This document shows positions 7,779-54,685 of a stretch of DNA of 64,000 nucleotides, piece after piece (the stretch's first letter is position 1; every line of letters starts with the position of its first letter). The notes under the pieces are model-generated. The model saw only the letters and a program-made list of their open reading frames with translations. It was not told where the DNA came from and did not search any database. Source of the stretch: Candidatus Gottesmanbacteria bacterium GW2011_GWA2_43_14 (GTDB lineage Bacteria > Patescibacteriota > Microgenomatia > 2-02-FULL-39-11); contig LCFP01000001.1 in assembly GCA_000999095.1 (NCBI GenBank), positions 205,680 through 269,679 of the forward strand. Direction: 5' to 3'. The position numbers and the translations under genes were made by a program.

Positions 7779-7940
7779 ACCGTAAATTGGAAGAATTAGA
7801 CTGAAGGAGTAATCAATTTCTGTAATTCAGTATTTGTTTCTTCATTACTCACATCTTCAAATTGCTGTAGTTTATACATATAAATATACTGTGAAGTAAC
7901 AGTGTATTTAATTAATAAGCATTTTTTTATCTTTAGAGAA

Positions 7941-8270
7941 TTAAACCAGAGGCTTTTGTGTTCGCTTCCTAACCAATTCACTTATGGCTTTTGCAACTCC
8001 GAAACAATATTTCTCAATAATTAGATTAGGAATATGAATAGTATGGAAATTATCTATTTCAGAGTAGTGTGATCTACCGAAATCCCTTGCGATTTGATCA
8101 GGATCTAAAAAATGGTGCATTCCATCCACTTCAATATAAATTTGTGCGTCAAGAATAGCTATGTCGACATGTTTATGTCCGTCTGAGTATTCATATTCAG
8201 CATTAACGCCCAATCTTTTAAGTTCGTTAAAGAGTTTTTCTGCCTGCGGTGTACTATGTAGATGATTCAT
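7941..8270 (-). CDS. DUF559-like (Vsr/restriction-endonuclease-fold) protein
   Basis: EKLFNELKRLGVNAEYEY...HVDIAILDAQIYIEVDGMHHF...ARDFGRS resembles the DUF559 core (L..L...G..F..Q..IG.Y.VDF.....IELDG..H......D..RD). Confidence 0.45.
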   Translation of the reverse strand: MNHLHSTPQAEKLFNELKRLGVNAEYEYSDGHKHVDIAILDAQIYIEVDGMHHFLDPDQIARDFGRSHYSEIDNFHTIHIPNLIIEKYCFGVAKAISELVRKRTQKPLV

Positions 8271-8288
8271 ATAACTATCTACGATTCT

Positions 8289-8495
8289 TCAGGAAACTGG
8301 AGACTTTTTATAATCCACTCGAATGCATACATCTCTGAAACAAAGAATCATAAGTCTGAGAATCATATTTACTTTTAACTGACTTGTAGCTGTAACTGCA
8401 TTTAAATTACAATCTTTTTTGAAATTAGCCGGTCTTAATATAAACCAATAAAAAGAAAATAGTATTAAACCGATCGTCAGTAAGAACCACATCAT
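8289..8495 (-). CDS. small hydrophobic protein, unknown function
   Basis: 68-aa ORF with one TM helix. Weak support. Confidence 0.25.
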   Translation of the reverse strand: MMWFLLTIGLILFSFYWFILRPANFKKDCNLNAVTATSQLKVNMILRLMILCFRDVCIRVDYKKSPVS

Positions 8496-8516
8496 AATTT
8501 GATTATAATACGAATC

Positions 8517-9032
8517 ATGAAACTATTCTTTAAAATCTTGCATAAAAGATTCTGGACAAGAAATATAATTTTAGTCTGTACACTCTTGGTTTTAACTTCA
8601 ATTCTTATGTATTTGAATCAACCTAAACAATATAGTTTTCTTCCGAAATTTAAAGGCATGGTTTCTGACACGGATAAAACTATTCAAATTTTCGGTCTGA
8701 GGTATTCTTCATACCTGTCCGGCAATTCATCCCCGGCAGAATTTAAAGAGGCTCTTATTAACTTTCAGGATGATTTGATTAGCCTTAATGAAGGATTGGA
8801 GAATTTAAAGCCTAATAAGGAACACCAGGAGCTATACAAACAATACCTGACTGGAATCAGTCTGGTAAAAGGTGTGGTCAAATACAACCTTGAAAACCTG
8901 ACTGATGAAATCCTTGATGCTGATTTAGTGGAGGAAGAACAGGTAAAAATGGAAACAGGATTAAATTTAATTCAACTTACTAAGGAAAAACTAGGGATAG
9001 AATCAACTTCTCAGCCAGAAAGCTTAATTTAA
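8517..9032 (+). CDS. membrane-anchored hypothetical protein
   Basis: N-terminal TM helix (NIILVCTLLVLTSILMYL) followed by a hydrophilic domain. The start is probably the internal MKLFF. Confidence 0.4.
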   Translation: MKLFFKILHKRFWTRNIILVCTLLVLTSILMYLNQPKQYSFLPKFKGMVSDTDKTIQIFGLRYSSYLSGNSSPAEFKEALINFQDDLISLNEGLENLKPNKEHQELYKQYLTGISLVKGVVKYNLENLTDEILDADLVEEEQVKMETGLNLIQLTKEKLGIESTSQPESLI

Positions 9033-9043
9033 GTATTCATGAG

Positions 9044-9697
9044 GTGGTAATATTTAATTATATGGAAATCTTTAAGTCTATACTTAGTTTTATATCTGCT
9101 ATGTTTATTGGAGTCTTCGGATTTATCAATCCTGTCATTAAAATAGCTCCCACACCAACTTTACCACTTTCAATTGGTAATACTTCTGTATCACCTTTAA
9201 TACCTACCACCAATGAGTTTAACTCTAAACCTGTTGATCGTGGAGATGTAATTGGAATAATGGGGAATACAGGAAACGCTTCTAGACCAAAACTACATTT
9301 TGCGGTTTACAATTTAAATGAATCAGATTTGAACAAGTTTAACGCTGATGTCGGACATTTAAACCCTTTTAATTTTCTTCGAAATAAGAAATTATTTTTT
9401 GATTCTGATTCCTGTCACGATGTGAGTAAAAAAATTGAAAAATCAGTCGGAACTGGAAATTGGGATTGGCCAATGTCTAATCCAATAATTTCACAATGTT
9501 ATGGAAATACTCAATTGTCATTAAATAATCCTGATGAAATTAATAATGGAATTGATATGTATGATGATGTCGATACGCTTGTGCGGGCGGTTGAAAACGG
9601 AAATAAATATGTTTATCGTGGCGGAGCTTCTGAAGGAAATGGGGTATTAATTTTTCACTCTGACGGTAAAATGAGTCTTTATTGGCACCTTCAATAA
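9044..9697 (+). CDS. circularly permuted, degenerate M23/LytM-domain protein (signal-anchored). Paralog of the EnvC-like protein at 26640.
   Basis: GDVIGIMGNTGNASRPKLHFAVY precedes GNWDWPMSNP...INNGIDMYDD...SLYWHLQ-stop. The HxH motif is reduced to KLHF and the HxxxD motif to NNGID, so two metal ligands are lost. Confidence 0.6.
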   Translation: MVIFNYMEIFKSILSFISAMFIGVFGFINPVIKIAPTPTLPLSIGNTSVSPLIPTTNEFNSKPVDRGDVIGIMGNTGNASRPKLHFAVYNLNESDLNKFNADVGHLNPFNFLRNKKLFFDSDSCHDVSKKIEKSVGTGNWDWPMSNPIISQCYGNTQLSLNNPDEINNGIDMYDDVDTLVRAVENGNKYVYRGGASEGNGVLIFHSDGKMSLYWHLQ

Positions 9698-9826
9698 TTA
9701 ATAACAACATAATCTTGATTTAAGAAATAAATATTTCATATAAAATTACCTTTACAATCGGACAACACAATATGATCAAATTAATAAATTTAGTAATAGA
9801 TTATTTACTGGAGTACAATACGGATT

Positions 9827-10432
9827 ATGTATAGCCTATATAAAATATGTACTATTTTATTAACTGCCTCTTTGGCAGTTTTTTTATACTTTTCGCCAGT
9901 TGAAGCAAAACAAGGGTGTTGTTCTAGTCATGGGGGAGTTAATTGTGATGCTGGAGCGCAATCTAATGGTCTAGTAATCTGTAATGATGGCTGGAGGGGA
10001 TCTTCTTGTTTATATTCAGAAATGGTAATGTGTGGTGGTTCATCGAGTAATTCTATAAATATTGCACCTATAAAAGATCAACCAATTCAAATATTACCTT
10101 CATCAACTCCGACTATTAAGAGAATTTATCCAACCTGGACACCAAAGCCCCAACCTACCTTAATCCCTTCTGCAACTTTAACTCCTGATTCAACAAGTAC
10201 TCCATATCCAACATATACTCCTTACCCTACTTATACACCTGTTCAGATGATCTCAGAATATCCTAAACCTTCAGGTTCTATACAGGGTGTTTCAACAGAT
10301 TCTAATACAGCTTCAGGAGATTTTTTTATCGGTTTACTGCTTGTAGGGCTGGCCTGGATTTTTAGAGGTAAAATTAAATGGATATTGAGCTCTCAAGGGA
10401 AATCTGATCAAGAATTACCTCCACAAAAATAG
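9827..10432 (+). CDS. Cys-rich secreted surface protein with Pro/Thr/Tyr linker and C-terminal TM anchor
   Basis: Signal peptide, then a CCSSHGGVNCDAG...C...C...C module. The linker contains PYPTYTPYPTYTP. The C-terminus is hydrophobic (FFIGLLLVGLAWIF). Confidence 0.55.
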   Translation: MYSLYKICTILLTASLAVFLYFSPVEAKQGCCSSHGGVNCDAGAQSNGLVICNDGWRGSSCLYSEMVMCGGSSSNSINIAPIKDQPIQILPSSTPTIKRIYPTWTPKPQPTLIPSATLTPDSTSTPYPTYTPYPTYTPVQMISEYPKPSGSIQGVSTDSNTASGDFFIGLLLVGLAWIFRGKIKWILSSQGKSDQELPPQK

Positions 10433-10655
10433 CGCCCAGTAACTTTTTAAAGTCGTGAGCGGTCTAATTGGAATCAAAAAGCATTTTCGCACATTCCTAC
10501 ATACTATTAACAAATTAATATTTTTTAAATTCGCATACTATATTTAAATATCAGTGTGATACATTTATAGCTTATTGTTACAACATATTTCACATGATAT
10601 TATTCAGGCAAATTTTTATACCTATAGTATTTTTAACATTAACAATTTCATTTAT

Positions 10656-10943
10656 ATGAAAATGAAAAAATATGCATTTATTTTCCTCTTTGTAATATTT
10701 GCTTCATTAATTAAGCCTCAAAATACTTTTGCATATGGTGGTGGTGGTCTTCCTGGATTACCTCCACCTCCTAAACTTAAACTTGTTTGTAATTATGAAG
10801 CTAGAATCATTAGACTAGTTTTCAATCGGACATTCACAATTTTAATACCAAAATGTCATGTCGAAGTTATTAAAGTAAATAATGATGAATTTAAAAATAG
10901 ATGGAATGATTTCATTAAGCGTGTAAGAAATGGTAATAGTTAA
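10656..10943 (+). CDS. small secreted protein, unknown function
   Basis: Signal peptide MKMKKYAFIFLFVIFASLIKPQNTFA, then GGGGLPGLPPPP. I chose the start at the internal ATG (10656). Confidence 0.4.
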   Translation: MKMKKYAFIFLFVIFASLIKPQNTFAYGGGGLPGLPPPPKLKLVCNYEARIIRLVFNRTFTILIPKCHVEVIKVNNDEFKNRWNDFIKRVRNGNS

Positions 10944-10948
10944 TATGT

Positions 10949-12571
10949 ATGGATTTAAACTCTCAAAACGAAGAAAAATATCTATATATTCATAAAACTC
11001 CCACTTGGAAAGTCCGTATACTATATTTTTTTGGGATTATCTCTTGGTTATTTGTAATTTATAGCTATGCTGGTTTGATAGGCATTGATCCTTTCTTTAC
11101 TTGGTATTTTTTACCAATTCTTACCGTTCTATCTTTATATTATCTAATAAGTTGGAGTATTAATGCTTTTTATAAACAATTTAATTTATATAATCATCAG
11201 AGATTAATAAAAACCTATTGGGCATATCATCGAGAGCCATTAGTTGATATATTTCTTCCAATATGTGGTGAAGATATTGAAGTATTAAGGAATACTTGGT
11301 GGCATGTTTTTAATATTTCTTATAAAAACAAAAAAATATATGTACTTGATGATTCTTCGGAAGAGTGTGAAGAGCATCAACAATTAGCAAATTTATTTGG
11401 CTTTAATTATTTTAGTCGTCCCAATAAGGGAGAAAATAAAAAAGCAGGAAATTTAAAATATGCTTATGAACGAACTAATGGAGAATTTATTGCTATATTT
11501 GATGCTGATTTTGCTCCACATAAAGATTTTCTAATTGAAGCTTTACCTTATACAAATAATTATAATGTGGGAATAGTACAGACTCCACAATATTTTGAAA
11601 CGAACGAGAAATTATACAAATCTTCATCACTTGCCTATGCGGCTGCATATCAAGAAGAATTCTTTTATCGTATAATTCAAGTTGCAAGAAACAGATTTGA
11701 TGCTCCTATATGTTGTGGTTCAAATTCAATATTTAGACGAAGAGCACTTATGACAATAGGGGGATTTCGGCAAGTAACAGCAAGTGAAGATTCTCGGACT
11801 GGATTCGCACTACTTTGTAAGGGTTGGATTATCCGTTATATTCCTGTTATTTTAGCCACGGGTATGTGTCCAACTAATGTATATGCTTATTACCATCAGC
11901 AGCACCGTTGGTGTAGAGGACGTTCAGAACTCACTCTTTCTAGGGAATTTATATTTGCTCCTATATCGTTTATCAAAAAACTATGTTATACAAGTGGTTT
12001 TCTTATGTTTTTAATTAGACCATTAAAATTATTTATTTCGTTTCATCTATTTTGGATTTTATTTATATATAATGATACCATTTCTTTAAGTAATTCCTTC
12101 ATATTTTATCTATATTTACTATTTGTTTTTATTCTTGACCCCCTGTTTCATATAGCAAAATTTAAGAAAGAAAACTTTTTAGTAGCTATGATTAAGATTT
12201 ATTCAAGTACCCATGCGATTATTTCGGTTTTAATGAGAAAAACAGTAAGTTGGATACCAACGAATGCTAAACATAAGAAAGTTTCTCACGCTTTTATTCA
12301 AACAACAAATCTTGTTGGTCTTTATTTATTCTTGTATGTAACACTGATATTATTAGCCATTAGGACGGGTGATTTACACTTATTGAATTATGACTATTTT
12401 TCTATTCAGTTTTGGATATTCTGGAATATTTTACTTACAATTGTTTTATTTGTACAATTTTTAAATGTAATTAAAAGTATGAAATATAGTAAGAATGATA
12501 ATAGTTTTTCAAATCAATATAAACGAATTAATCTACTTCCAAAGTTAGATTTAGATATTGCCTCCTATTAA
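10949..12571 (+). CDS. family-2 processive beta-glycosyltransferase, cellulose-synthase (BcsA/CESA)-like catalytic membrane protein
   Basis: The D, DxD, ED, QxxRW quartet is present: VLDDSS, IFDADF, TASEDSRTGF, QQHRWCRG. TM helices flank the catalytic domain. Confidence 0.8.
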   Translation: MDLNSQNEEKYLYIHKTPTWKVRILYFFGIISWLFVIYSYAGLIGIDPFFTWYFLPILTVLSLYYLISWSINAFYKQFNLYNHQRLIKTYWAYHREPLVDIFLPICGEDIEVLRNTWWHVFNISYKNKKIYVLDDSSEECEEHQQLANLFGFNYFSRPNKGENKKAGNLKYAYERTNGEFIAIFDADFAPHKDFLIEALPYTNNYNVGIVQTPQYFETNEKLYKSSSLAYAAAYQEEFFYRIIQVARNRFDAPICCGSNSIFRRRALMTIGGFRQVTASEDSRTGFALLCKGWIIRYIPVILATGMCPTNVYAYYHQQHRWCRGRSELTLSREFIFAPISFIKKLCYTSGFLMFLIRPLKLFISFHLFWILFIYNDTISLSNSFIFYLYLLFVFILDPLFHIAKFKKENFLVAMIKIYSSTHAIISVLMRKTVSWIPTNAKHKKVSHAFIQTTNLVGLYLFLYVTLILLAIRTGDLHLLNYDYFSIQFWIFWNILLTIVLFVQFLNVIKSMKYSKNDNSFSNQYKRINLLPKLDLDIASY

Positions 12572-12618
12572 TTTTGTACACATTTAAATAATAGGTATTT
12601 TCAGTATAATATCTACAA

Positions 12619-12993
12619 CAATACAAGCAAATATTTCTCGTATTAGCTTCAATTCTTCAGCAAAATCAATATAGAGCTCCAACTCAAACATTCAAACCTC
12701 AACCAACAAAACATATTCCTCCCTCAACAAGAATTCCTCCCATCGAAGAACCACTTCCCACTTATACACCTTTCCCAACTTATACCCCATATCCATCATA
12801 TACACCTGAACCAACTTCTCAACTTAAAACAATATCCCCAAAACCAACCGGTGAAATAAAAGGGGTCTCTACTAATGCTTCTACATATTTTGAAAGGGAA
12901 ATGTCGGGTTGTGTTCAAACCATCCTTACAGTTATGGTGGAACATGACATTTTCAAACACCTCCTTCATATAAAGATAACTACGAACTCGTAA
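12619..12993 (+). pseudogene. remnant (C-terminal-like fragment) of a surface protein paralogous to 9827..10432. No start codon.
   Basis: The in-frame translation PLPTYTPFPTYTPYPSYTPEPTSQLKTISPKPTGEIKGVSTNAS parallels TPYPTYTPYPTYTPVQMISEYPKPSGSIQGVSTDSN of the intact gene. It lacks a start codon and the TM anchor. Confidence 0.4.
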
Positions 12994-13169
12994 TTTTCTT
13001 TGTTCTCCTACTACTGTATCTATAGATTTTTGCATTATTGCTCGTTTTACTGGAAATTTCTTACCTTCTTCGTAAGGTTAATCCATATTTACTTATACTC
13101 AATTTTAAAATAATACACGTATTATCATTAGACGTTAGAAATGACTTTGTTTTTGGTATAATCCGGATA

Positions 13170-13493
13170 ATGAGGAATAATCTTCGGCAGTTACGACTAG
13201 AATATCACATGCTTCAGGATCACTTAGGGAAAAAAGTAGATCTCACAAGACAATCAATTATATCTATAGAAAAAGGAAAGACTGCTCCTTCACTTAAGAC
13301 CGCCTTTAAAATAGCCCAATTTTTTAATAGAAAAGTTGAGGATATCTTTTTAATAGATAAGGGTATTAAGTCCAGAGGAACGAAGCAAAAAAAAACCACT
13401 TATACAGTAACTATAACTAGTGATTCTCCAATTGAGATAGTAAAAGTCTCACGAAACAGTGGCCATAATAAACACCCATATAAGAATCGGTAG
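13170..13493 (+). CDS. XRE-family helix-turn-helix transcriptional regulator
   Basis: LRQLRLEYHMLQDHLGKKVDLTRQSIISIEKGKTAPSLKTAFKIAQFF is a classic HTH_XRE. I chose the internal ATG as the start. Confidence 0.65.
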   Translation: MRNNLRQLRLEYHMLQDHLGKKVDLTRQSIISIEKGKTAPSLKTAFKIAQFFNRKVEDIFLIDKGIKSRGTKQKKTTYTVTITSDSPIEIVKVSRNSGHNKHPYKNR

Positions 13494-13586
13494 GTGTCTT
13501 TAAAAAGTAAAAAGGCTGAACTCAAATAATGTTATATTAACCTCGGGAACTAGTGATAATCATTAGTTATTGCAGTGAATTCAGAA

Positions 13587-13952
13587 TTACGTTATTTCCC
13601 CATTTGAATCCTCTTTTAAAGTAATCCATAATATTGCCATTCCAGCATCCGGGTCGTTTGTAATATCATTTTGTGTTTTAATATAAATTTCCTTTAATTT
13701 TTCAGCTACCTTAGGTTTATCAATATATTTGAATTGTCCAATATATTGCTTTCCTTTATGGGCGTTTATACTCCCATTACACCAGATGCTATTGAATCCA
13801 CAAGGCGGCCGTTGAGATTCTTCAAATGATTTATCTTTATATACGACTAAATTGATCATGTATTCATACGTAGTATGTTTCATATTGATATCTAATTTTT
13901 CCTCTATTTTTGTAATTCTTCCTTTACTGGTCATGTATTTTCTCCTCAACAA
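13587..13952 (-). CDS. hypothetical protein
   Basis: 121-aa ORF, no recognisable motif. Confidence 0.3.
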   Translation of the reverse strand: MLRRKYMTSKGRITKIEEKLDINMKHTTYEYMINLVVYKDKSFEESQRPPCGFNSIWCNGSINAHKGKQYIGQFKYIDKPKVAEKLKEIYIKTQNDITNDPDAGMAILWITLKEDSNGEIT

Positions 13953-14063
13953 TTTTTTCTATCTTTTCCAATCTATCTTCAATTTCAGATTTTTCATGAG
14001 CGTCAGGAAAGCAACGAATTAGGAAACCAATCGAAATGTAACGAATAGTCTCTTTTACTTTTT

Positions 14064-14759
14064 TTACGGGGAATTTTTGACGGCGGTCACAATCAGGCGC
14101 TTGCTGTCGGCATAGCCTGAACAGGTATAGAGGGTAAGAATGGAACTGTCAGTCGGCCCGATAACTTCCGTTTGGCTGGGTAAAACTTCCTTTATTTCCG
14201 CAACGGTGTAGGAATACCAGGCGTCAGCTGTCAGAACCAGGACGCTTTCTCCGGTCTTAATCTCTTTTAAAGGCAGAAACAATCCCTGCCTGGCATGAGC
14301 GAAAATAACCGTGTTGCCGGTCTCATCAGGATAAGCTGATCCTAAACCGAAACCGGCACTGTCGGGGAAAACTTCCCAGAAGCCGCTGACAATCTTTGCC
14401 TCTTTGACCGGCAGATTGATATTCAGTGAAGGAATGACAATCCTGTTCGGACTCTGCTGCGCTTTGGCAGTGGCTTTCTTCTCCTCCAAAAATTTCTCAT
14501 CTATCTTGACCGGCTCGCTGGCAAAGGATACGGATATCAGTTCGCCGCTTTTTTCATCAAGGATAGGGGCTGTCTTTTTCAGCGACTGCTGGTTTAAGTA
14601 AATGGAGGCCAGTACAAAAAATAAGCCTGATGCTAAAAGCACCAGTCTTATCTTTTTTGTCCTGTCAGCAAGGATCGACTTTAACGTCGGTTTCTTTTGC
14701 CTATAAGGTTGTTTGCGACGTCGGTGTTTAGTTTTGACTTGGCGTACAGCAGCAGGCAT
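14064..14759 (-). CDS. sortase (class A-like cysteine transpeptidase), membrane-anchored
   Basis: N-terminal TM helix. Catalytic His in NTVIFAHAR, TLYTCSG (TLxTC Cys motif), Arg in RLIVTAV. Confidence 0.75.
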   Translation of the reverse strand: MPAAVRQVKTKHRRRKQPYRQKKPTLKSILADRTKKIRLVLLASGLFFVLASIYLNQQSLKKTAPILDEKSGELISVSFASEPVKIDEKFLEEKKATAKAQQSPNRIVIPSLNINLPVKEAKIVSGFWEVFPDSAGFGLGSAYPDETGNTVIFAHARQGLFLPLKEIKTGESVLVLTADAWYSYTVAEIKEVLPSQTEVIGPTDSSILTLYTCSGYADSKRLIVTAVKNSP

Positions 14760-26639: not shown

Positions 26640-27866
26640 CTATTGCAAGTGCCAGTAGAGGGTCATTTTGCCGTTTTCATGGAAGATAAAAACACCGTTG
26701 CCTGCCGATTGTCCGCCGCGGTATACGTATTTATTGCCGCCTTCAACAGACTTGATTAAAGTGTTTTTGTCGTCATACATATCGACTCCGTTGTGGATGC
26801 CGGACTGGTAACGCCAGGACCAGGGAGTATGGCCGTAACACTGGGAAATTGACGGACTATCCATCGGCCAGTCCCAGGACCCGGAGCCGATCGACTTTGA
26901 GGTTCTCTGGTCGGGCGAGACGTCGTCGCAGGCGGTTGCCTCGAAGCCCAACTCCCTGGATTTCAACAGGTTAAACGGATTCTCATAACCGCTGTTGAAA
27001 TTGAACTTATTCAAATCAGCTTCGTTCAGGTTGTATACAGCAAAATGCAGATGGGCACCGGTAGAAAACCCTGTGTTCCCCATGATGCCGATGACATCGC
27101 CTTTATTGATTTTGGTTGGTACCCCGGCCTGGGACAGAAGTGATGCAGCGCGCTGGATGCCTTCGGCTTCCCTCCTGGCCGCATCAAGTTCCTGGCGGTA
27201 GCGGGACTCGCTGCTTCTGGTAGTCTCCAAAAACAGCTCTTTTTCTTTTTTCTGCACCGCCAGGGTATTTTGTTCTTTTTCCAGCTGTTTTTTTGCCTGG
27301 TCAAGCTCCACTTTTTTATCTTCACGCTGCTGTTTCTGGTCTTTAAAATTTTCCTTGCTGTTCTGGAGCTGAAACAGCAGTTTTCTGTCATGCGCCTGGA
27401 CTTTCTGCATGTATTTGAAGCGGTTGACGAAATCGGAAAAACCGTTGGAAGAAAGAACCATAGTCAGATAGGATTTTTCCCCCAGCCTGTAGGTAGCGGC
27501 AATCCGGTCCAAAAGGACCTGGGAAATTTTTGTCAAAGAAGATTCCAGGCTGTCGATTTTTTCGGAAATCGTATCAATATCTTTTTCAATTTGCGCAATC
27601 TTACCCCTGGTAGCATCAATTTTCGCCGTAGTCAGCTGAATTGAAGTCGTCAGGTAAACAATTTGAGCTGCCATGTTCTGCCTTTGGGCGGAACAGACAT
27701 TGACGATGTCAGTATAACAGCTGACGCGTTCATTGGCCTCTGATTTATCTTTGCAGGGATCGTCGTTCGGACAGACAGACAATCCGTACACGCTCAAAGG
27801 AGTTAAAACCAGGTATATAAATACGACCGATAAGATCCTGAAAAGTTGAGTGGTTATTCTGGACAT
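26640..27866 (-). CDS. EnvC-like cell-division murein hydrolase / activator: signal-anchor, about 200-aa coiled coil, circularly permuted M23 (LytM) domain with intact metal ligands
   Basis: Heptad-rich KIAQIEKDIDTISEKIDSLESSLTK...QELDAARREAEGIQRA. Then KGDVIGIMGNTGFSTGAHLHFAVY (canonical C-terminal M23 block with HxH). Then WDWPM...QCYGH...HNGVDMYDD...GKMTLYWHLQ-stop (canonical N-terminal block with HxxxD and the YxHL histidine). It lies immediately downstream of ftsX. Confidence 0.75.
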   Translation of the reverse strand: MSRITTQLFRILSVVFIYLVLTPLSVYGLSVCPNDDPCKDKSEANERVSCYTDIVNVCSAQRQNMAAQIVYLTTSIQLTTAKIDATRGKIAQIEKDIDTISEKIDSLESSLTKISQVLLDRIAATYRLGEKSYLTMVLSSNGFSDFVNRFKYMQKVQAHDRKLLFQLQNSKENFKDQKQQREDKKVELDQAKKQLEKEQNTLAVQKKEKELFLETTRSSESRYRQELDAARREAEGIQRAASLLSQAGVPTKINKGDVIGIMGNTGFSTGAHLHFAVYNLNEADLNKFNFNSGYENPFNLLKSRELGFEATACDDVSPDQRTSKSIGSGSWDWPMDSPSISQCYGHTPWSWRYQSGIHNGVDMYDDKNTLIKSVEGGNKYVYRGGQSAGNGVFIFHENGKMTLYWHLQ

Positions 27867-27873
27867 CTTTAGG

Positions 27874-28782
27874 TTAATCGTTAAGATACCTGCTTGATGC
27901 AAACAGGCTGCCGACAAAACCTATACCCAATCCGCAAGCAACAAGCAGCAGATAGAGAAGCAGGAACAAAGTCAGGTTTAAAGGCCAGATCAACAAAGTG
28001 AAACTGCCGGCAGATACAAGTTTTAAACTGCCGACACCTTTGAGAAATGAATCGGCATAAGGCTCAAGATAAAGCATCAGGAAAAAACTGATGACAAAAG
28101 CCATGGTGGCGCCTGCCAAACCGTAAAGTAGACCTTCTTTGATAAAAGGTTTTTTTATATACCAGTTGGTAGCACCGACCAGTCTGAGAATTTCGATTTC
28201 TTCCTTTTTATTGGCAATTTTCATGCTGACGGAAGTCAGCAGTATGAAAAAAGTCGACAGGATGAGAAAAAATACAAAAATAAAACCTACTTTACGGACG
28301 GTAGATGCCCAAACAATTAAGGTATCCACTACTTCCTTCTGAAAGACGACGTCCTCCACTCCTGGTTCCGAACGCACTGACTGGTATATCTCATCCAAAT
28401 ACTTTGGAGAAGTGGCTGAAACATCCAGTGAAGCAGGCAGGATGTCGGCTGTCACCATTTCCAAAAGCAAAGGGTCATCCTTGTTCTGCTCACGGTAAAT
28501 AGCCAGTGCTTCTTCCTTGGAAACGTACTTCGTGGAAAGGACTTTATCCGTGCTTTTAAGCTTTTCCGCAAATTTATCTATCGATGCCTTATCCTTGTCG
28601 TTGGAGAAAAAAACGGTTAATTGGGGCTTGGATTCGAAATAACCGACCAAAGCACTTGACGATGCAACCAGGAGCAGGAACAAACCCAACACAAACAGGG
28701 TGATGAACATCATAAACAACGAAGCCACAGTCTGATACGGCGTCCTTCTTAATCTCTGCCAAACCGAAATGGTCGAATACAT
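27874..28782 (-). CDS. ftsX: cell division permease-like protein FtsX
   Basis: Four TM segments, large extracellular loop after TM1. IEILRLVGATNWYIKKPFIKEG conserved FtsX block. Directly downstream of ftsE. Confidence 0.8.
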   Translation of the reverse strand: MYSTISVWQRLRRTPYQTVASLFMMFITLFVLGLFLLLVASSSALVGYFESKPQLTVFFSNDKDKASIDKFAEKLKSTDKVLSTKYVSKEEALAIYREQNKDDPLLLEMVTADILPASLDVSATSPKYLDEIYQSVRSEPGVEDVVFQKEVVDTLIVWASTVRKVGFIFVFFLILSTFFILLTSVSMKIANKKEEIEILRLVGATNWYIKKPFIKEGLLYGLAGATMAFVISFFLMLYLEPYADSFLKGVGSLKLVSAGSFTLLIWPLNLTLFLLLYLLLVACGLGIGFVGSLFASSRYLND

Positions 28783-28784
28783 AC

Positions 28785-29459
28785 TTATGAATACTTGCTT
28801 TTTTTCTGGTCCCTGATTATTTTGCCTTTGCTTATTTCGATCACTCTTTTTTTCATGCTGTTGACTATATCAACGTTATGGGATGCCATTATGACCGTTT
28901 TGCCCTGTTTGTTTATCTCAGTGATTATTTTAAGTATATCCCAGGATGTTTTCGGGTCCAGGTTGCCCGTCGGTTCATCAGCCAGGAGGATTTCCGTTTC
29001 GCCGGCGACTGCCCGGCCGATGGCTACTCTCTGCTGTTCACCCAGGGATAATTGTTTGGGGAAAAAATTGGCCTTTTCGGTCAAAAGTACTATATTCAGC
29101 ACTTCCCTGATTCTCTTGTCGATGTCGGCGGACTGCCTGTCCAAAATTTCCAGGGAAACGGCAACATTTTCTGCCACAGTACGGTCATTTAATAATTTAA
29201 AATCCTGGAAAACGAAACCGACTTTACGTCTGAGAAAGGGTACTCTTGATTTGGGTAACTTATTTACTTCCAGGTCGCTGACAAAGACAGAGCCTGATGA
29301 AGGCAGTAATTCCCGGTCAATCAGGCGGAGAATTGTGGTTTTGCCTGCTCCCGAGGAACCGACCAGGAAAACAAACTCCCCCTTGTCGATTTTGAAATTG
29401 ATATCCTCGACAGCAGTAGATTTACCGTATCTTTTGCTGACATTATCAAATAGGATCAT
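28785..29459 (-). CDS. ftsE: cell division ATP-binding protein FtsE
   Basis: Walker A GSSGAGKTT, ABC signature LSLGEQQRVAIGRA, Walker B ILLADEPTGNLD. 224 aa. Confidence 0.9.
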   Translation of the reverse strand: MILFDNVSKRYGKSTAVEDINFKIDKGEFVFLVGSSGAGKTTILRLIDRELLPSSGSVFVSDLEVNKLPKSRVPFLRRKVGFVFQDFKLLNDRTVAENVAVSLEILDRQSADIDKRIREVLNIVLLTEKANFFPKQLSLGEQQRVAIGRAVAGETEILLADEPTGNLDPKTSWDILKIITEINKQGKTVIMASHNVDIVNSMKKRVIEISKGKIIRDQKKSKYS

Positions 29460-45040: not shown

Positions 45041-48000
45041 TTACCGTTTGTGTACAGATGATTCTCTGCGGTTTTTCAGATAATATAAAAGAAAAATAAG
45101 CGGCAATACCAACCAAAGATACATTCCTACCTTTTCCAAGTTTTGCGGCCTGTATAAAATTTCAAGTTTTCCGCCGTCAAAATCCCTGCCGTCTATTTCC
45201 CAGCCGTTCTCCCAATTATTGACTTTAAGATGCCGGCCGACTTCCTTTTTACCGTTTTGATCTCTAGCATACAACTTCCAACCATCATCAAAGCTTTGGG
45301 CAAGAATTAAGGTGAATGTATCGTCCGGAATTTCATTAAATTCAATTAAATACTTATCCGGGTGCGGATGGACAACAGTTATATCATTAAGTGGAATTGT
45401 CGTACGCTTTTGCCCTGGTTTGACCAGTTTTAATTCTGAAAGAAAATTATATGGTATGGGATTTACTGTAATTCTGCCGATATCATTTGCCGTCTCCTGT
45501 CTCCCTATGGAAATATTTCTGATATTGAAAAGATATCCTAAAGCATAATTTTCCATCGGAGGAATTATCAGATAGGAAACATCAAAATCCGAAGGAATCA
45601 GCTTATCCTTACGAGGTAGCATTACCTCCAAATCGGATCTTTTGGAATTATTATTAATAATCCCGAAATATAGACTCTTGCCGCTGATATTTCTGCTTTC
45701 GACCCGGACTAAATAACCCAATTGATGCGAGAGCCTGTCGGTTTCATAATTCAGACAATAAATTCCGTCCCGGCTGGTCATTCTTAAAAACGGCTTATCG
45801 AACTCAATTATTCTTTCATATATATTCAGCTCTGGGTCCGGTTTTTCGCAGGTAAAAGGATTGACCGATGAAATCGAATCGGTTAAATAACTGTCAAAAC
45901 TGTAATAGCCTTTTATTTTCGGTATTTTTACTTCCAAAATTCCCCGCTCAAAATCAGGCAATACAATTCCATTATTGAAATCCTTGTCTCCGACAGAGGC
46001 TAATATTTGACTGTCCAGGTAAATATCAGAATTTTTTGCGGTTGTTTTTGACAGATCACGGCTGTCAATTTCCAGAAAGTCCGATGCATCCGTTGGAGGT
46101 ATCCTCAGCTCCTGGTTTCTGAATTCGCCCGGTATGACAGATGTGAAAATATAATCCTCTTCAGTCTCCGTAATGGTAAATTCATGACGGACGTTGGATG
46201 TATCGGAAAATAGTGACCTGAAAGGATAATGAATCCTGTCAGCATCAATCCTTTTTCCGTCATCACTTTTATAATCACCCGATTCCAGATAAGCCATATC
46301 AAGATTGCCTGAAATATAATCCGGCGATACCCCCGGCAAAATGTCCGTCAAACGGATGTTTTCTTCAGTTGTCTCAACCCGGTATAAGGATATGCGGCCG
46401 AAAGTCCTGTCCTTCCTGATTATTGCCGATGAGGAAATAAGAGTCTGCAGGCGGTCTCTATATAATTCACGTGAATTGGAAAAACTGATGACATTGCCAT
46501 CAAATAATACCCATTTGATCTTGTATTTTTGCAAAGTTTGTTCAAATAAGTATAGATTTCTCGAATATATGGCATAAGAAATCTCATGAAAATAATTCTC
46601 ATCTTCCCTGCTCCAGACATCGAACGCCCTGTCCATCACAGGCTGCTCTAATCCGTACCAGATAAAACCGGACCCTGAGTAATTGAAACGGTAAAAGGTC
46701 CATCCCCAAAAAGTATATTGCGGGAAATTGGCAATTCTGTCAGTAGAGGGCACTTTTTTGAAATAATTAAAAAGATCAAAATATTCGCGGGGAATCTCAG
46801 CCCGTACTTTGTAATAAAAAAGCCTTCCCGAAAATACCGGCAGGCAATAAAAAACCGGCAGGAAAATCAGGAGGATCATCAATAAATTTATTTTGCGGAA
46901 GGGCAGTACTTTTTCAGACAGCCACAGACTTCCTATGCCGTAAAAAACAGCCAGTCCTGTTATATGCAGGATGGATAATTTAGTAAAAGGAAATCTGAAT
47001 ACCTGGGAAAAAAGCGGAATTTTGTTAAAGATGCCTGCCAGATAACTGAAAAAAGGGGCATCATTTGCCAGAATGGAAAAGCTGAAGACGACAAGAGGCA
47101 AAAGCAGTCGGCTTTTGCCTTTCTTCTCGCTATAGGCATAATAACAACCAATTATAGCCAAAAGGGGGAATATAAAACCTACCGTCTGCAATCGCGGATC
47201 TTTAAGATAATCTAACCAGTCCTGCAACTGGTACTCAAGTCCGCCGGAAGTATTTATTTCGGTATTGTCGAACCAAAATCCTCTCAGAAGCAGGACGTTT
47301 TCCAAATCGCCGAACTTCTTATTTCTGAGAAACATATCCTCTGTCGACATGCGGTTTATTTTGGCTTGTGTATTGACTTCGATTTTCCTGACAATGAAAT
47401 AAATATTAGGCAAAAGCCAAAAAGCGTTGACAATAAAAACCGTCAGAAATAAAACGATGATTCTGCGCAAATATTTCCGGTTAAAAAACTGGACGGCCAG
47501 TAATGACAGAGACAGACAATAAACCAGAAAAAATGTTCCTATGTAGCTTTGGGGAACCGCCAGAAAATTTATCAGGGCTACTCCCAAAAAATTCTTGAAG
47601 CCACCCTGCCGGAAAAAGCGGACAGTTGAATATAATAACCACGGTAAAAAAGCATAGTGGACTGAATAAGGTTCAAACGGTACATTAAACATTTGGACTG
47701 TGGCCAGATTGAACAAATAGTACAAAGCTCCTGCCAGTGCTCCCCATTTCCTCATGACATGACGGGACGGTATCAGGTAAAAAAGAAAATGATAAAGTCC
47801 CAAAGGACCTACGAAAAGCATCAGAAAATGGAAAAAATAACGGATAAACTGCACCGGAATAAAGGGGGAAATCAGGTAAAGAAAAATCTGTCTTATCAGA
47901 TCCGCGGCATGCCCCATCCCGCCCAGGAGACCCAATCCCTGGTATTCCTGCCAGACGGCAAATAATGAACGCTTCAGGTTTATGTCAAAACCGAACTCAG

Positions 48001-48130
48001 GATGCAGGTTATCCCAGCCTGAAAGAACCGTCCCCGGCCTGTAATTGGTCCAGGCTACCGCCACGGCCAAGGCCAGTATTATCATTTGAGGTTTTTTGAA
48101 GAAATTCAATAATCTGTTCAACATGTGCAA
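45041..48130 (-). CDS. very large (1029 aa) polytopic membrane protein with large C-terminal extracytoplasmic domain, GT-C-like (AftD/Emb-like architecture)
   Basis: N-terminal SGWDNLHPEF...WQEYQGLGLLGG. At least 12 TM helices in the first 560 aa, then a 450-aa soluble domain and a final TM. The assignment rests on architecture only. Confidence 0.5.
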   Translation of the reverse strand: MHMLNRLLNFFKKPQMIILALAVAVAWTNYRPGTVLSGWDNLHPEFGFDINLKRSLFAVWQEYQGLGLLGGMGHAADLIRQIFLYLISPFIPVQFIRYFFHFLMLFVGPLGLYHFLFYLIPSRHVMRKWGALAGALYYLFNLATVQMFNVPFEPYSVHYAFLPWLLYSTVRFFRQGGFKNFLGVALINFLAVPQSYIGTFFLVYCLSLSLLAVQFFNRKYLRRIIVLFLTVFIVNAFWLLPNIYFIVRKIEVNTQAKINRMSTEDMFLRNKKFGDLENVLLLRGFWFDNTEINTSGGLEYQLQDWLDYLKDPRLQTVGFIFPLLAIIGCYYAYSEKKGKSRLLLPLVVFSFSILANDAPFFSYLAGIFNKIPLFSQVFRFPFTKLSILHITGLAVFYGIGSLWLSEKVLPFRKINLLMILLIFLPVFYCLPVFSGRLFYYKVRAEIPREYFDLFNYFKKVPSTDRIANFPQYTFWGWTFYRFNYSGSGFIWYGLEQPVMDRAFDVWSREDENYFHEISYAIYSRNLYLFEQTLQKYKIKWVLFDGNVISFSNSRELYRDRLQTLISSSAIIRKDRTFGRISLYRVETTEENIRLTDILPGVSPDYISGNLDMAYLESGDYKSDDGKRIDADRIHYPFRSLFSDTSNVRHEFTITETEEDYIFTSVIPGEFRNQELRIPPTDASDFLEIDSRDLSKTTAKNSDIYLDSQILASVGDKDFNNGIVLPDFERGILEVKIPKIKGYYSFDSYLTDSISSVNPFTCEKPDPELNIYERIIEFDKPFLRMTSRDGIYCLNYETDRLSHQLGYLVRVESRNISGKSLYFGIINNNSKRSDLEVMLPRKDKLIPSDFDVSYLIIPPMENYALGYLFNIRNISIGRQETANDIGRITVNPIPYNFLSELKLVKPGQKRTTIPLNDITVVHPHPDKYLIEFNEIPDDTFTLILAQSFDDGWKLYARDQNGKKEVGRHLKVNNWENGWEIDGRDFDGGKLEILYRPQNLEKVGMYLWLVLPLIFLLYYLKNRRESSVHKR

Positions 48131-48135
48131 TACCG

Positions 48136-50193
48136 TCAGTTTACCCGGAAAATTTCATAATCACTCGACAAATAAACCCGCTCTATCGGCTTTTTTACTT
48201 CATGCGAATTCTCATCAGCTTCAAATGAATAATAGAAATTTATATAGATGGTATCATCAAACTTCATATCAGAGGAAAGAATCAGTTCTTCACCTGCATT
48301 GACTTGTAAAACCATAGGGGCTTCAAAAACAGTATTAATCCCCTCATTGACAGAATTCCATTTCAAACCGTAAAGTGAATTATTTACTTTAATGTTAGCA
48401 TCCGTAAAAATGCCGGGAGCAATATGAATCCCATCCAGTATGAATTCTCCATCCTTATGAAAATAAAACCCGGTTTTCAAAGATGGGTATTTTATTAATT
48501 TTATGGAAGAAGAAACAACACCGTGAGTATCAGTTTTAAGAACAATTACTTCAGGATTTAGGTTATACCACCAATATCTTACATTACTGCATTCATCATA
48601 ATAAAATTTCTCGTATTGGCGGTTTTTATGGATAATAATGCTTCTGATATCAAAATTTCTTAAAAGAGCCAACGTGTCATTAAAATTTTTATCGACATAG
48701 AGCAATTTATCTTTATGCACTTTTTCTGAATCACAAATATACCTTTGGGTATATTCCTGTTCAAAAAAGGACAACGTGCTCTTATTTTCAGCAGTGTCAT
48801 GAAAATAGCCGTCAACAATTTTTTTATGCGTCATGTACGGTAAAACACTCCGGAAGGCATTAGTTGCCGATAATGGAATATTTAAAATTGCTTTTTCGGG
48901 TAGCTGAGCGGCGACTTTACTCTCCATAAACGGCAATGCAAATGTCCGGTGAACAGTAAAAGTCAGTCTTTCCAATAACATTAAAAGTATTAACGGATAA
49001 ATAAATTTTTTGAGTTTGAAAAAAGGAATCACCGACATAAATACCAGTATCAAAATGGAAAAAATAACAATACTTCTTCCGCCTTCAGGCCAATAAGGTA
49101 ATGGAATCATACCTAAGGTGGCTATCAGATAGACTGCCAATGACAATAAAATAAATATCTTTCTGCGGTTTATTTTTTCCTTGAAATAAAATATTATGAA
49201 GATTATCCAGCCTACCAGTCCAGGACTGATTACCTTCTCTATTGAGGCAGAAGAAAAATTCAATTTCGAATATAGAAGATTAATATACTGATTTGGAATT
49301 AGAATGTCAGACAACTGCGGGAGACAGCATTGAACATACCTTCCATAATTAAAGGGGTAAACAAAACTGCCAAAGATTATACCCTTGGCAAATCCGCCAA
49401 AGAAATATAAAGCGATTATTGCATTAAGTAACAGGACAAAATAAAACACTTCCGGTTTATTTCTTACTTTAACTTTTGCCATCTGAAGATAATATATTAT
49501 GACGGCCAGGCTGTCTTTCGGATATAAAAGCAAATATCCGGTCAGAAGAAACAGGAAAAACCAAAATACTATGATTAAATATTGCAATGATCCGAAAGCG
49601 ATTAATAAAATACCGAAGATGATGTTGAAATAAGCGATAAATCCTGCTTTACCTTTATTTCTGAAAAAATCATAAAATGCTTTTGCCAAAAAAGGGAAAC
49701 CGCCAATAAAGGCCAAATTAGGATGTGAGTTGATTCTGGCGATCACATAAGGTGAGAAACCGTAAAAAATACCGGCGAAAAGTCCGAATAATCCAGATTC
49801 TGAAATCGTACTGAAAAATGAATAAGTTATATAAAAATTCAGGAAAAGGATTAAAATTATCACGAGGTTATATGCTAAAGGGAGCGGCAGGATAAATGAA
49901 AGTAAGGCACCGCTAAAGGTTGATAAGACGCCATCATAACCGTGGCTTAACTCGAATCCGTTCGGATAACGTAAAATATCGGTTTTTTCCAGGGCATATT
50001 TTCCTGATCTAAGATTTTCTCCAACCAGGTACATAAAATTAAAAAATTCATACTTATCTCCATGATCACCGAGCAATTCTTTATACGGGTTGATTGAATA
50101 AATCCTGGAGAAAATAAAAGCCAGTATTAACCCGATAATAATGATCTTATATTTGTTCATTTTTAAAAATATATTCATAATACCTACGGCCAA
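48136..50193 (-). CDS. polytopic membrane protein, GT-C-like, paralog A of an unnamed family
   Basis: Shares LGDHGDKYEFFNFMYLVGENL...RYPNGFELSHGYDGVL...LAYNLV...YGFSPYVIARINSHPNLAFIGGFP with 51400..53406. Confidence 0.5.
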   Translation of the reverse strand: MAVGIMNIFLKMNKYKIIIIGLILAFIFSRIYSINPYKELLGDHGDKYEFFNFMYLVGENLRSGKYALEKTDILRYPNGFELSHGYDGVLSTFSGALLSFILPLPLAYNLVIILILFLNFYITYSFFSTISESGLFGLFAGIFYGFSPYVIARINSHPNLAFIGGFPFLAKAFYDFFRNKGKAGFIAYFNIIFGILLIAFGSLQYLIIVFWFFLFLLTGYLLLYPKDSLAVIIYYLQMAKVKVRNKPEVFYFVLLLNAIIALYFFGGFAKGIIFGSFVYPFNYGRYVQCCLPQLSDILIPNQYINLLYSKLNFSSASIEKVISPGLVGWIIFIIFYFKEKINRRKIFILLSLAVYLIATLGMIPLPYWPEGGRSIVIFSILILVFMSVIPFFKLKKFIYPLILLMLLERLTFTVHRTFALPFMESKVAAQLPEKAILNIPLSATNAFRSVLPYMTHKKIVDGYFHDTAENKSTLSFFEQEYTQRYICDSEKVHKDKLLYVDKNFNDTLALLRNFDIRSIIIHKNRQYEKFYYDECSNVRYWWYNLNPEVIVLKTDTHGVVSSSIKLIKYPSLKTGFYFHKDGEFILDGIHIAPGIFTDANIKVNNSLYGLKWNSVNEGINTVFEAPMVLQVNAGEELILSSDMKFDDTIYINFYYSFEADENSHEVKKPIERVYLSSDYEIFRVN

Positions 50194-53406: not shown

Positions 53407-53436
53407 ACTTTACAGTCATACCGTTATTTTCCTAAA

Positions 53437-54324: not shown

Positions 54325-54397
54325 ATTTATAAATTCATTTGGCTTTCCGTTGCCGGTTGCGAAGCATAACCTCGCAACCAACCTCTGATTCCAAATG

Positions 54398-54685
54398 TCA
54401 CTCAGTTGCGATTTTTGTCGTATAACCCATATCTTCTATACATGTCTTATAAAAGCCGTGATTCGGCTCCATAGTTCTTGAAGTGGTCTGATTTCCGTTT
54501 TCGCCATTGCTTCGTTCCTCAAATATAAAGTTGGCTGCCTGGGAACATTCAGCCATGGCTCTTATCTGCATGAATTTATCGACACGCTGTAAAGCCATAA
54601 AAGCAGTGACTATCAAAACCAATCCCATAATGACCATTCCGACATCTTTTACATCAGTTCTCATAGAATTTTCACCACCTTTCAA
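54398..54685 (-). CDS. small membrane protein, unknown
   Basis: One TM (VGMVIMGLVLIVTAFMAL). RBS AAGGTGGTGAAAAT. Confidence 0.3.
   Translation of the reverse strand: MKGGENSMRTDVKDVGMVIMGLVLIVTAFMALQRVDKFMQIRAMAECSQAANFIFEERSNGENGNQTTSRTMEPNHGFYKTCIEDMGYTTKIATE

What the first reader, a model, noticed from the sequence alone, without database searches (positions are those of the whole stretch)
9044..9697. Degenerate paralog of the permuted M23 domain inside the AT-rich island
This protein has the same permuted block order and the same C-terminal YWHLQ. The first His of HxH is Lys (KLHF) and the His of HxxxD is Asn (NNGID), so two of the three zinc ligands are missing. By analogy with degenerate LytM factors (EnvC, NlpD) it may be a non-catalytic regulator or binding module. 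It lacks the coiled coil and has only a signal anchor. It is encoded in compositionally atypical, possibly horizontally acquired DNA.
Basis: seen in the sequence. Interest (0 to 1): 0.5.

Follow-up and report, generated by a model that had tools for sequence, protein, structure and literature searches.

The report
Inactive paralog of permuted M23 peptidase
A small membrane-anchored protein of a groundwater Gottesmanbacteria (CPR) genome is a catalytically dead copy of that lineage's unusual circularly permuted cell-wall peptidase domain. It has been kept by selection and probably works as a binding or regulatory module; this is a modest extension of the known "degenerate LytM" theme.

Summary
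The sequence observation holds. ORF 9044..9697(+) encodes a protein with a hydrophobic N-terminal anchor, a Pro/Thr/Ser linker and a domain 61% identical (E 8e-72) to the C-terminal domain of the FtsX-linked protein at 26640..27917(-). Both carry a circularly permuted M23/LytM domain: the G-x-TG…HxH half comes before the HxxxD…YxHL half.

In LytM the ligands are His210, Asp214 and His293, the second His of HxH. Here only one ligand is lost (His210→Asn). Two non-ligand catalytic residues are also lost (His291→Lys and, probably, Tyr204→Asn).

About 180 other family sequences keep all six catalytic residues. One other protein (P0155, 62% identical, also short and in AT-rich DNA) shows the same triple loss. 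The dN/dS between the two is about 0.14. Shared changes cluster in the active-site loops. So this is a conserved pseudoenzyme lineage, not decay.

It is not a recent duplicate of the resident gene. It lies in a 6.3-kb island of 31% GC (GC3 22% against 57%).

A regulatory or binding role like EnvC, NlpD or DipM is the best guess, but the partner is unknown. It lacks every known targeting domain. I rate it a new variant of a known kind, of moderate interest.

The parts
9044..9697 (+). Gene for the degenerate permuted M23/LytM protein (217 codons from GTG 9044 to the stop at 9695-9697). ATG 9062 (211 aa) is the more plausible start; ATG 9101 is the start used by public gene callers.
9041..9047 (+). 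GAGGTGG, a Shine-Dalgarno-like sequence 14 nt before ATG 9062. It overlaps GTG 9044.
   Evidence: read from the sequence; function inferred
9068..9139 (+). Hydrophobic segment IFKSILSFISAMFIGVFGFINPVI (residues 9-32 of the 217-aa ORF), read as a signal anchor or uncleaved signal peptide.
   Evidence: Kyte-Doolittle 19-residue window means up to 1.98; AF2 helix followed by a low-pLDDT region
9140..9229 (+). Pro/Thr/Ser-rich linker predicted to be disordered.
   Evidence: pLDDT 42-50 over this stretch; equivalent S/T/N- or P/T-rich linkers in P0155 and P0002
9230..9397 (+). First half of the permuted domain, equivalent to the C-terminal half of a canonical M23 domain (GDVIGIMGNTG…KLHF…NPFNFL). 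K83 (9290-9292) replaces the catalytic first His of HxH. H85 (9296-9298), the zinc-ligand equivalent of LytM His293, is kept.
9398..9460 (+). Connector that joins the canonical C-terminus to the canonical N-terminus. It contains Cys124 (9413-9415), which with Cys152 (9497-9499) is conserved across the close family and may form a disulfide (inferred).
9461..9694 (+). Second half of the permuted domain, equivalent to the N-terminal half of a canonical M23 domain (WDWP…NNGID…YWHLQ). N162 (9527-9529) is at the probable Tyr204 position. N167 (9542-9544) is at the His210 zinc-ligand position. D171 (9554-9556, Asp214 equivalent) and H215 (9686-9688, His260 equivalent) are kept.
8499..9032 (+). Upstream gene, ending 12 nt before the ORF, so probably co-transcribed. 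It encodes a 177-aa protein with an N-terminal TM helix and a predicted four-helix bundle. It has no family match.
   Evidence: no terminator-like site between the two genes
8289..8495 (-). Divergent 68-aa small membrane protein. It is weakly similar (36% over 42 aa, pairwise E 3e-6) to the 93-aa protein in the same relative position next to P0155.
7780..14050 (.). AT-rich island (about 31% GC; GC3 0.15-0.33). From left to right it carries a DUF559/MTES_1575-like fragment, small membrane proteins, this gene, a Cys-rich/PT-rich 201-aa surface protein, a cellulose-synthase-like GT2 and an HTH_3 regulator. It has no integrase, no tRNA and no flanking direct repeats.
26640..27917 (-). Resident full-length homolog: PcsB-type coiled coil plus a catalytically intact permuted M23 domain (HLHF 27045-27056, H376xxxD380 (the last five residues of YQSGIHNGVD, which spans 26781-26810), YWHLQ 26643-26657). 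It is the last gene of a prfB-ftsE-ftsX operon.

Best explanation
The gene encodes a membrane-tethered protein that faces outward. It is a catalytically inactive pseudoenzyme version of the circularly permuted M23/LytM domain that Microgenomates (Patescibacteria) normally use, fused to a coiled coil, as the FtsEX-coupled cell-wall hydrolase.

Shown: the fold scaffold is kept, with about 59 of 74 family-invariant positions retained and AF2 pLDDT above 90 over most of the domain. Three of the six catalytic positions have been replaced: one zinc ligand and two residues that act on the water or the oxyanion. The same triple loss occurs in a second, 62%-identical protein from another organism. The pair has evolved under purifying selection. 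Their shared changes sit in the two active-site loops.

Inferred: the protein does not cleave peptidoglycan. It uses the remodelled active-site groove as a docking surface, as the degenerate LytM factors EnvC, NlpD, ActS and DipM do for amidases and other autolysins.

The docking partner could be another cell-wall hydrolase, possibly its own active paralog as in Csd1-Csd2. It could also be the peptidoglycan stem peptide itself.

With only a membrane anchor and a flexible linker, it would act close to the membrane and independently of FtsEX. It arrived with, or resides in, an AT-rich cell-surface island rather than arising as a recent local duplication.

For: Catalytic state: at the positions (H291, H293, Y204, H210, D214, H260) this protein reads K-H-N-N-D-H and P0155 reads Q-H-N-N-D-H. 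Each of these positions is H, H, Y, H, D or H in 179-192 of the 194 aligned family sequences. Residue roles come from PMC4594094.

Selection: dN/dS is about 0.14 between this gene and P0155, with dS saturated. The protein is 100% identical in three independent metagenome assemblies, and neither of the two with DNA in hand (L001, L002) has a SNP inside the gene.

Focused remodelling: of 74 domain columns at least 90% conserved in 117 active long forms, 7 are changed in both degenerate proteins. All 7 lie in the TGFSTGxHLHF and GHTPWSWRYQSGIHNG segments. Three have identical replacements (G→R, Y→N, H→N).

Fold: AF2 block-mean pLDDT is about 85-98 for most of residues 55-211, with dips to 74 and 79.

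Precedent: the groove around the degenerate site is the docking site in DipM and EnvC (PMC10336132). LytM domains substituted at these positions lack zinc (PMC8416486).

Conserved local gene order next to P0155: small TM protein (-), TM-anchored protein (+), degenerate LytM (+).
Against: No partner was identified. The 64-kb window has no amidase or other obvious hydrolase apart from the 26640 protein. The island neighbours have no family matches.

The protein lacks every targeting domain of characterised dLytM factors (coiled coil, LysM, lipobox).

Two zinc ligands (Asp, His) and one catalytic His remain, and Asn can ligate zinc. Metal binding and some residual chemistry are therefore not excluded.

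Only two sequence clusters of this degenerate type exist among billions of proteins, so it is a rare accessory function at best. Bootstrap support for the W9044+P0155 clade is only 47%.
Confidence: 0.6

Rival explanations
1. It is a non-enzymatic peptidoglycan-binding or scaffold protein rather than a hydrolase activator. One version is a wall-binding tether or adhesin displayed from the membrane, in a CPR cell possibly binding the wall of a host bacterium. Another is a SpoIIQ-like protein-protein scaffold.
Against: There is no direct evidence of binding. The shared G→R, F→N/S and H→N/Y changes alter the very loops that contact substrate in M23 enzymes, which argues against simple retention of stem-peptide binding.
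Confidence: 0.2
2. It is still an enzyme. Asp171, His85 and perhaps Asn167 hold a metal, and Lys83 and His215 act on the water, giving a peptidase with altered chemistry or specificity.
For: Two of the three ligands and one of the two water-activating histidines are retained. An Asn carboxamide can coordinate zinc in latent LytM (PMC4594094).
Against: Replacing either water-activating histidine with alanine abolishes activity in LytM, lysostaphin, LasA and Ale-1, and mutagenesis confirmed a catalytic role for Tyr204 (PMC4594094). [quoted passage not shown] About 180 relatives keep all six residues strictly, so the active family does not tolerate such changes.
Confidence: 0.1
3. It is a decaying, functionless relic carried on a horizontally acquired island.
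For: It is rare. It has the longest branch in the family tree, with 8 further private changes at otherwise invariant positions. A neighbouring gene remnant at about 12650-12900 shows that the island is eroding.
Against: The 211-217-codon ORF is intact. A second lineage with the same triple loss diverged at saturated synonymous sites, yet dN/dS is about 0.14. About 80% of invariant scaffold positions are kept. The AF2 fold is confident. The protein is identical in three metagenomes.
Confidence: 0.08

Closest known systems
Degenerate LytM (dLytM) factors: EnvC, NlpD, ActS (E. coli), DipM (Caulobacter)
   Same: It has an M23/LytM fold with substituted catalytic residues. DipM shows nearly the same pattern at the aligned positions: N at the HxxxD His and QLHF in place of HLHF. 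These factors are extracytoplasmic. They are expected to use the groove around the dead site as a docking surface (PMC10336132).
   Different: The domain is circularly permuted. The Asp of HxxxD is retained. There is no coiled coil, LysM domain or lipobox, only a membrane anchor and a linker. It comes from a CPR bacterium rather than a proteobacterium. No amidase partner is known, and activation was not tested.
FtsEX-coupled coiled-coil hydrolases (PcsB, CwlO, RipC; the window's own 26640 protein)
   Same: The domain is 61% identical to the catalytic domain of the 26640 protein. That protein is the lineage's FtsX-adjacent CC_PcsB-type hydrolase.
   Different: It lacks the coiled coil that docks such proteins on FtsX. 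It is not next to ftsEX. It lacks three catalytic residues.
Csd2 of the Csd1-Csd2 pair (Helicobacter pylori) and SpoIIQ (Bacillus subtilis)
   Same: These are degenerate LytM domains that work by protein-protein contact. Csd2 pairs with its active M23 paralog Csd1 (the depositors' description of 5j1l, listed; the paralog pairing is my own knowledge), and SpoIIQ pairs with SpoIIIAH. Both are among the PDB matches. SpoIIQ is also membrane-anchored.
   Different: There is no evidence of heterodimerisation here. The topology is permuted. Sequence identity to both is low (22-27%).
Canonical active M23 peptidases (LytM, lysostaphin, zoocin A, MepM/ShyA)
   Same: The Pfam PF01551 match is above the cut-off. 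The conserved G-x-TG…H-x-H, HxxxD and YxHL blocks are recognisable.
   Different: The block order is swapped by circular permutation. Three of the six catalytic residues are replaced.

Membership tests
Peptidase family M23 / LytM domain (Pfam PF01551) | Significant profile match above the curated cut-off | tested here: met
   45.1 bits against a gathering score of 28.7, E 1.2e-11, in two stretches. PDB M23 chains are hit by phmmer.
Peptidase family M23 / LytM domain (Pfam PF01551) | Canonical linear order HxxxD … YxHL … G-x-TG … HxH | tested here: not met
   The order is G-x-TG…[K]xH … [N]xxxD … YxHL. Query 135-216 aligns to chain residues 11-87, and query 56-88 to chain residues 90-122 of DipM. 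This is a circular permutation.
Peptidase family M23 / LytM domain (Pfam PF01551) | M23 beta-sheet fold | tested here: met
Active M23 metallopeptidase | Three zinc ligands (His and Asp of HxxxD, second His of HxH) | tested here: not met
   The positions read N167, D171 and H85, so one of the three ligands is lost. Ligand identities are from PMC4594094.
Active M23 metallopeptidase | Water-activating histidines (LytM His260, His291) and catalytic Tyr204 | tested here: not met
   H215 is kept. K83 replaces the His291 equivalent. N162 is at the Tyr position, and no Tyr occurs anywhere in the loop between 'CYG' and 'NNGID'. The Tyr equivalence is by alignment, and the loop length varies across the family.
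Degenerate LytM regulatory factor (EnvC/NlpD/ActS/DipM type) | LytM domain with substituted catalytic residues, retained under selection | tested here: met
Degenerate LytM regulatory factor (EnvC/NlpD/ActS/DipM type) | Binds and activates an amidase or other autolysin through the groove | not testable with these tools
   No partner gene is in the window. No multimer modelling or biochemistry is available here.
Degenerate LytM regulatory factor (EnvC/NlpD/ActS/DipM type) | Equivalog-level sequence membership (NCBIfam EnvC, DipM, ActS models) | tested here: not met
   DipM scores 30.9 bits against a cut-off of 900. ActS scores 20.5 against 375. There is no EnvC hit for this protein.
Degenerate LytM regulatory factor (EnvC/NlpD/ActS/DipM type) | Targeting module (coiled coil for FtsX, LysM domains or lipoprotein signal) | tested here: not met
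   Only a hydrophobic anchor and a disordered linker are present. There is no CC_PcsB or LysM hit.
Permuted M23 family of Microgenomates (FtsX-adjacent coiled-coil hydrolase) | Permuted domain ending in Y-W/L-H-L-Q at the C-terminus, with the conserved Cys pair | tested here: met
Permuted M23 family of Microgenomates (FtsX-adjacent coiled-coil hydrolase) | N-terminal coiled coil and position immediately downstream of ftsX | tested here: not met
   The protein is 211-217 aa with no coiled coil. It lies 17 kb from ftsX, inside an AT-rich island. Most of the 59 genome loci encode forms of about 390-490 aa (a few shorter, 314-367 aa, one cut by masked sequence), and 52 of the 59 have ftsX detected immediately upstream.

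The most novel reading that the evidence does not exclude
The short, catalytically dead permuted LytM proteins (this one and P0155) may form a new class of CPR surface pseudoenzyme carried on exchangeable AT-rich cell-envelope islands. Displayed on a flexible tether, such a protein could bind foreign peptidoglycan (host-cell attachment in an episymbiotic lifestyle). Alternatively it could control the cell's single FtsEX-coupled hydrolase by heterodimerising with its active paralog. Either would be a mode of action not described for LytM factors, on a fold topology (circularly permuted M23) for which I found no published description.
Probability: 0.12. Interest if true: 0.75.

Novelty: new variant of a known kind. 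Interest (0 to 1): 0.42.

Why it matters
Degenerate LytM domains are the best-understood switch for turning on cell-wall hydrolases, but almost all knowledge comes from Proteobacteria and a few Firmicutes. This case shows the same route, from active M23 to a conserved dead copy, taken independently. It happened in a candidate-phyla-radiation lineage, on a circularly permuted version of the fold, with a minimal architecture of anchor, linker and domain.

If a partner could be found, it would give an entry point into how ultra-small CPR cells, which have very few autolysins, regulate wall cleavage or attach to other cells.

The finding also flags that the permuted M23 domain itself is the standard FtsEX partner across Microgenomates. 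Public records annotate it only as a generic 'M23 peptidase'.

Tried and rejected
1. Phage or plasmid origin. There was no tblastn hit in 50,697 phage records and no blastn hit of the island in PLSDB. IMG/VR gave only partial hits to canonical M23 halves. BFVD fold search found nothing significant. PHROG hits were generic M23 only. The island has no integrase, no tRNA and no flanking direct repeats. Rejected as unsupported.

2. More degenerate members. Two motif-specific DNA patterns were scanned: NNG-x-DM[YWF]DD, and MGNTG-x5-[KQE]LHF. In JGI metagenome contigs and in IMG/VR they gave only two chance hits, L087 and L088, both in unrelated high-GC genes.

3. GTDB species genomes. All 59 loci are closer to the 26640 protein than to this one. 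No ortholog of the degenerate form turned up.

4. Recent local duplication. Rejected: the gene groups closely with the 26640 gene in only 0.5% of bootstraps.

6. afdb50 fold search. The library was not available.

7. Tools that failed. The first tree script timed out. The first alignment was too divergent for the genome scan.

8. Literature. Searches for a circularly permuted M23/LytM domain found only permuted NlpC/P60 families.

Full report
**1. What is there**

ORF 9044..9697(+) is real. Its product has three parts:
- a hydrophobic N-terminal segment (residues 9-32 of the 217-codon ORF; Kyte-Doolittle 19-residue window means up to about 2.0);
- a Pro/Thr/Ser-rich stretch that AlphaFold2 leaves disordered (pLDDT 42-50);
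- a compact domain from about residue 55 to the C-terminus, modelled with block-mean pLDDT of 85-98 for most blocks and dips to 74 and 79.

The start codon is uncertain.
- GTG 9044 gives the longest ORF.
- ATG 9062 is preceded by GAGGTGG at 9041-9047.
- Public gene callers used ATG 9101, which truncates the hydrophobic segment.

The upstream gene ends 12 nt before the ORF with no terminator-like site between them, so the two are probably co-transcribed.

**2. Paralogy and permutation**

The domain is 61% identical over 157 residues (E 8e-72) to the C-terminal domain of the 425-aa protein at 26640..27917(-). That protein has a PcsB-type coiled coil (PF24568) and closes a prfB-ftsE-ftsX operon.

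Both proteins pass the Pfam M23 cut-off, but in two pieces. In phmmer against PDB chains the two halves match in swapped order:
- residues 135-216 of this protein align to the N-terminal part of the M23 domains of DipM and zoocin A (HxxxD…YxHL);
- residues 56-118 align to the C-terminal part (G-x-TG…HxH).

This is a clean circular permutation. The new N-terminus lies right after the canonical YxHL strand, and the new C-terminus is …YWHLQ.

I found no paper describing a permuted M23/LytM domain in the searchable corpus. The only 'circularly permuted' wall hydrolases that came up are NlpC/P60 families.

**3.

The LytM transition-state-analogue structure paper (PMC4594094) assigns these roles:
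- the zinc ligands are His210, Asp214 and His293;
- His260 and His291 activate the water;
- Tyr204 is catalytic.

His291 is the first His of HxH and His293 the second. In an HMM-guided alignment of 194 family sequences, the six positions are H, H, Y, H, D, H in 179-192 sequences each.

| Protein | H291 | H293 | Y204 | H210 | D214 | H260 |
|---|---|---|---|---|---|---|
| This protein | K | H | N | N | D | H |
| P0155 | Q | H | N | N | D | H |

So one of the three zinc ligands is lost, not two. Two non-ligand catalytic residues are lost as well.

The Tyr equivalence rests on alignment, and the loop length varies in the family. However, no Tyr exists anywhere in the corresponding loop of this protein.

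**4. Is it decay or a maintained state?**

- **A second degenerate member.** An exhaustive HMMER pass over 1.84 billion cluster representatives found 598 hits. About 60 of the best 150 have the permuted order. Word-indexed searches of 5.8 billion clusters added more than 120 long forms from Gottesmanbacteria, but only three short clusters. These are this protein (P0001, found in three assemblies, of which the two with DNA in hand are 99.8-99.96% identical to the window), P0155 and P0002.
- **P0155 resembles this protein in architecture and setting.** It is 211 aa (TM anchor, S/T/N linker, domain) and lies on a contig of 31% GC. It carries the same triple loss and the same G→R change two residues before the lost His.
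- **The local gene order is similar.** It runs small TM protein (-), TM-anchored protein (+), degenerate LytM (+). The small proteins are weakly similar: 36% over 42 aa.
- **Purifying selection.** The Nei-Gojobori dN/dS between the two is about 0.14, with dS saturated.
- **Changes are focused on the active site.** Of 74 domain columns at least 90% conserved in 117 active long forms, 7 are changed in both degenerate proteins. All 7 lie in the two active-site segments (TGFSTGxHLHF and GHTPWSWRYQSGIHNG). Three of the seven fall on the six a-priori catalytic positions; my hand hypergeometric estimate from the counts is p about 0.01.
- **The scaffold is largely kept.** P0155 keeps about 66 of the 74 columns and this protein about 59.

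Together this indicates a single remodelling of the active site followed by retention. It is a pseudoenzyme lineage, not a pseudogene.

**5. Where it came from**

A neighbour-joining tree places this protein with P0155 (47% bootstrap) and P0002 (52%). They sit inside the clade of Gottesmanbacteria long forms. This protein has the longest branch. It groups closely with the resident 26640 protein in only 0.5% of replicates.

In one genome per GTDB species, 59 loci encode the permuted domain.
- Most are forms of about 390-490 aa. A few are shorter (314-367 aa), and one is cut by masked sequence.
- In 52 of the 59 loci, ftsX was detected immediately upstream.
- All are closer to the 26640 protein than to this one.
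- The HxxxD and YxHL motifs were found intact in nearly all; my simple HxH pattern missed about a dozen divergent loci.

The taxa are Gottesmanbacteria (closest; 85% identity to the 26640 domain), Levyi-, Davies-, Collier-, Shapiro- and Amesbacteria, and WWE3.

The gene lies in a 6.3-kb island of about 31% GC. Island genes have GC3 of 0.15-0.33, against 0.41-0.575 for flanking genes. The island sits between RTX/CAP genes and sortase/surface-protein genes. It has no integrase, tRNA, flanking repeats, or phage or plasmid matches.

The most economical reading is transfer with a cell-envelope island from an AT-richer relative. The mechanism of transfer is unknown.

**6. How it probably works**

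- **Shown:** an outward-facing, tethered LytM-type domain with a disabled catalytic centre, kept under selection.
- **Inferred:** by analogy with EnvC and DipM, the groove around the dead site serves as a docking surface. In those proteins that groove binds the regulatory helix of amidases or other autolysins (PMC10336132). LytM domains with such substitutions lack zinc (PMC8416486).

Candidate partners are an autolysin, the active paralog (as in Csd1-Csd2), or peptidoglycan itself. Nothing in the window identifies the partner. There is no amidase among the window's longer ORFs that were scanned (about 50), and the co-transcribed 177-aa protein is an uninformative TM plus four-helix bundle.

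Because the coiled coil is missing, the protein cannot be controlled by FtsEX in the way the long form presumably is.

**7. Verdict**

It is a new variant of a known kind: a dLytM-type pseudoenzyme on a permuted scaffold with a minimal architecture, in a CPR lineage. Interest is moderate. The more surprising feature, the permuted M23 fold as the universal FtsEX partner in Microgenomates, belongs to the 26640 gene rather than to this finding.

Noticed in passing
window 26640-29459 (-), and loci L007-L065: A coiled coil (CC_PcsB) fused to a catalytically intact, circularly permuted M23 domain follows ftsE-ftsX here. The same arrangement holds in nearly all of the 59 Patescibacteria/Microgenomates genome loci fetched. 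I found no publication describing a permuted M23/LytM domain.
   Followed up: partly
P0002 (L003 1563-2327; L004) and P0156 (L006): Other short, coiled-coil-less forms keep HxH and HxxxD but end in YWQLQ, so the LytM His260 equivalent is Gln. This is a different, single-residue route to probable inactivation. P0002 sits between RadC/MazG-like and KilA-N genes.
   Followed up: partly
window 12650-12900 (+ strand, frame of 12562): An open stretch without a start codon repeats the YTPYPTYTP…GVST… C-terminal half of the 201-aa protein encoded at 9827-10432. It looks like a gene remnant, which suggests rearrangement or erosion inside the island.
   Followed up: partly
window 9827-10432 (+): A 201-aa protein with a signal peptide, a GCCSSHGGVNC Cys-rich motif, 18-nt-period YPTYTP repeats and a C-terminal TM segment. 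It has no Pfam, NCBIfam or PHROG match. A sortase gene lies at 14064-14759.
   Followed up: no
window 9413-9415 and 9497-9499 (Cys124, Cys152), and homologs: The close family conserves a Cys pair (SCDD… and SQC[YF]G) that flanks the connector created by the permutation. It may form a disulfide that staples the new connection.
   Followed up: no
window 48000-54400: A second low-GC stretch (GC 0.34-0.37, GC3 0.34-0.38) encodes large proteins without Pfam hits plus GT1 and GT2 enzymes. It may be another variable surface-glycan region.
   Followed up: no
loci L011-L013, L017, L018, L024, L026 and others: Many TPA MAG records titled 'uncultured Gammaproteobacteria' carry the Patescibacteria-type ftsX plus permuted M23 locus, with 60-82% identity to Gottesmanbacteria proteins. 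Their titles are probably taxonomic mislabels.
   Followed up: no
window 10949-12571 (+): The island's 540-aa GT2 resembles processive cellulose/chitin-type synthases (TIGR03030 CelA 173 bits, far below the cut-off of 699). Its GC3 is only 0.18.
   Followed up: no
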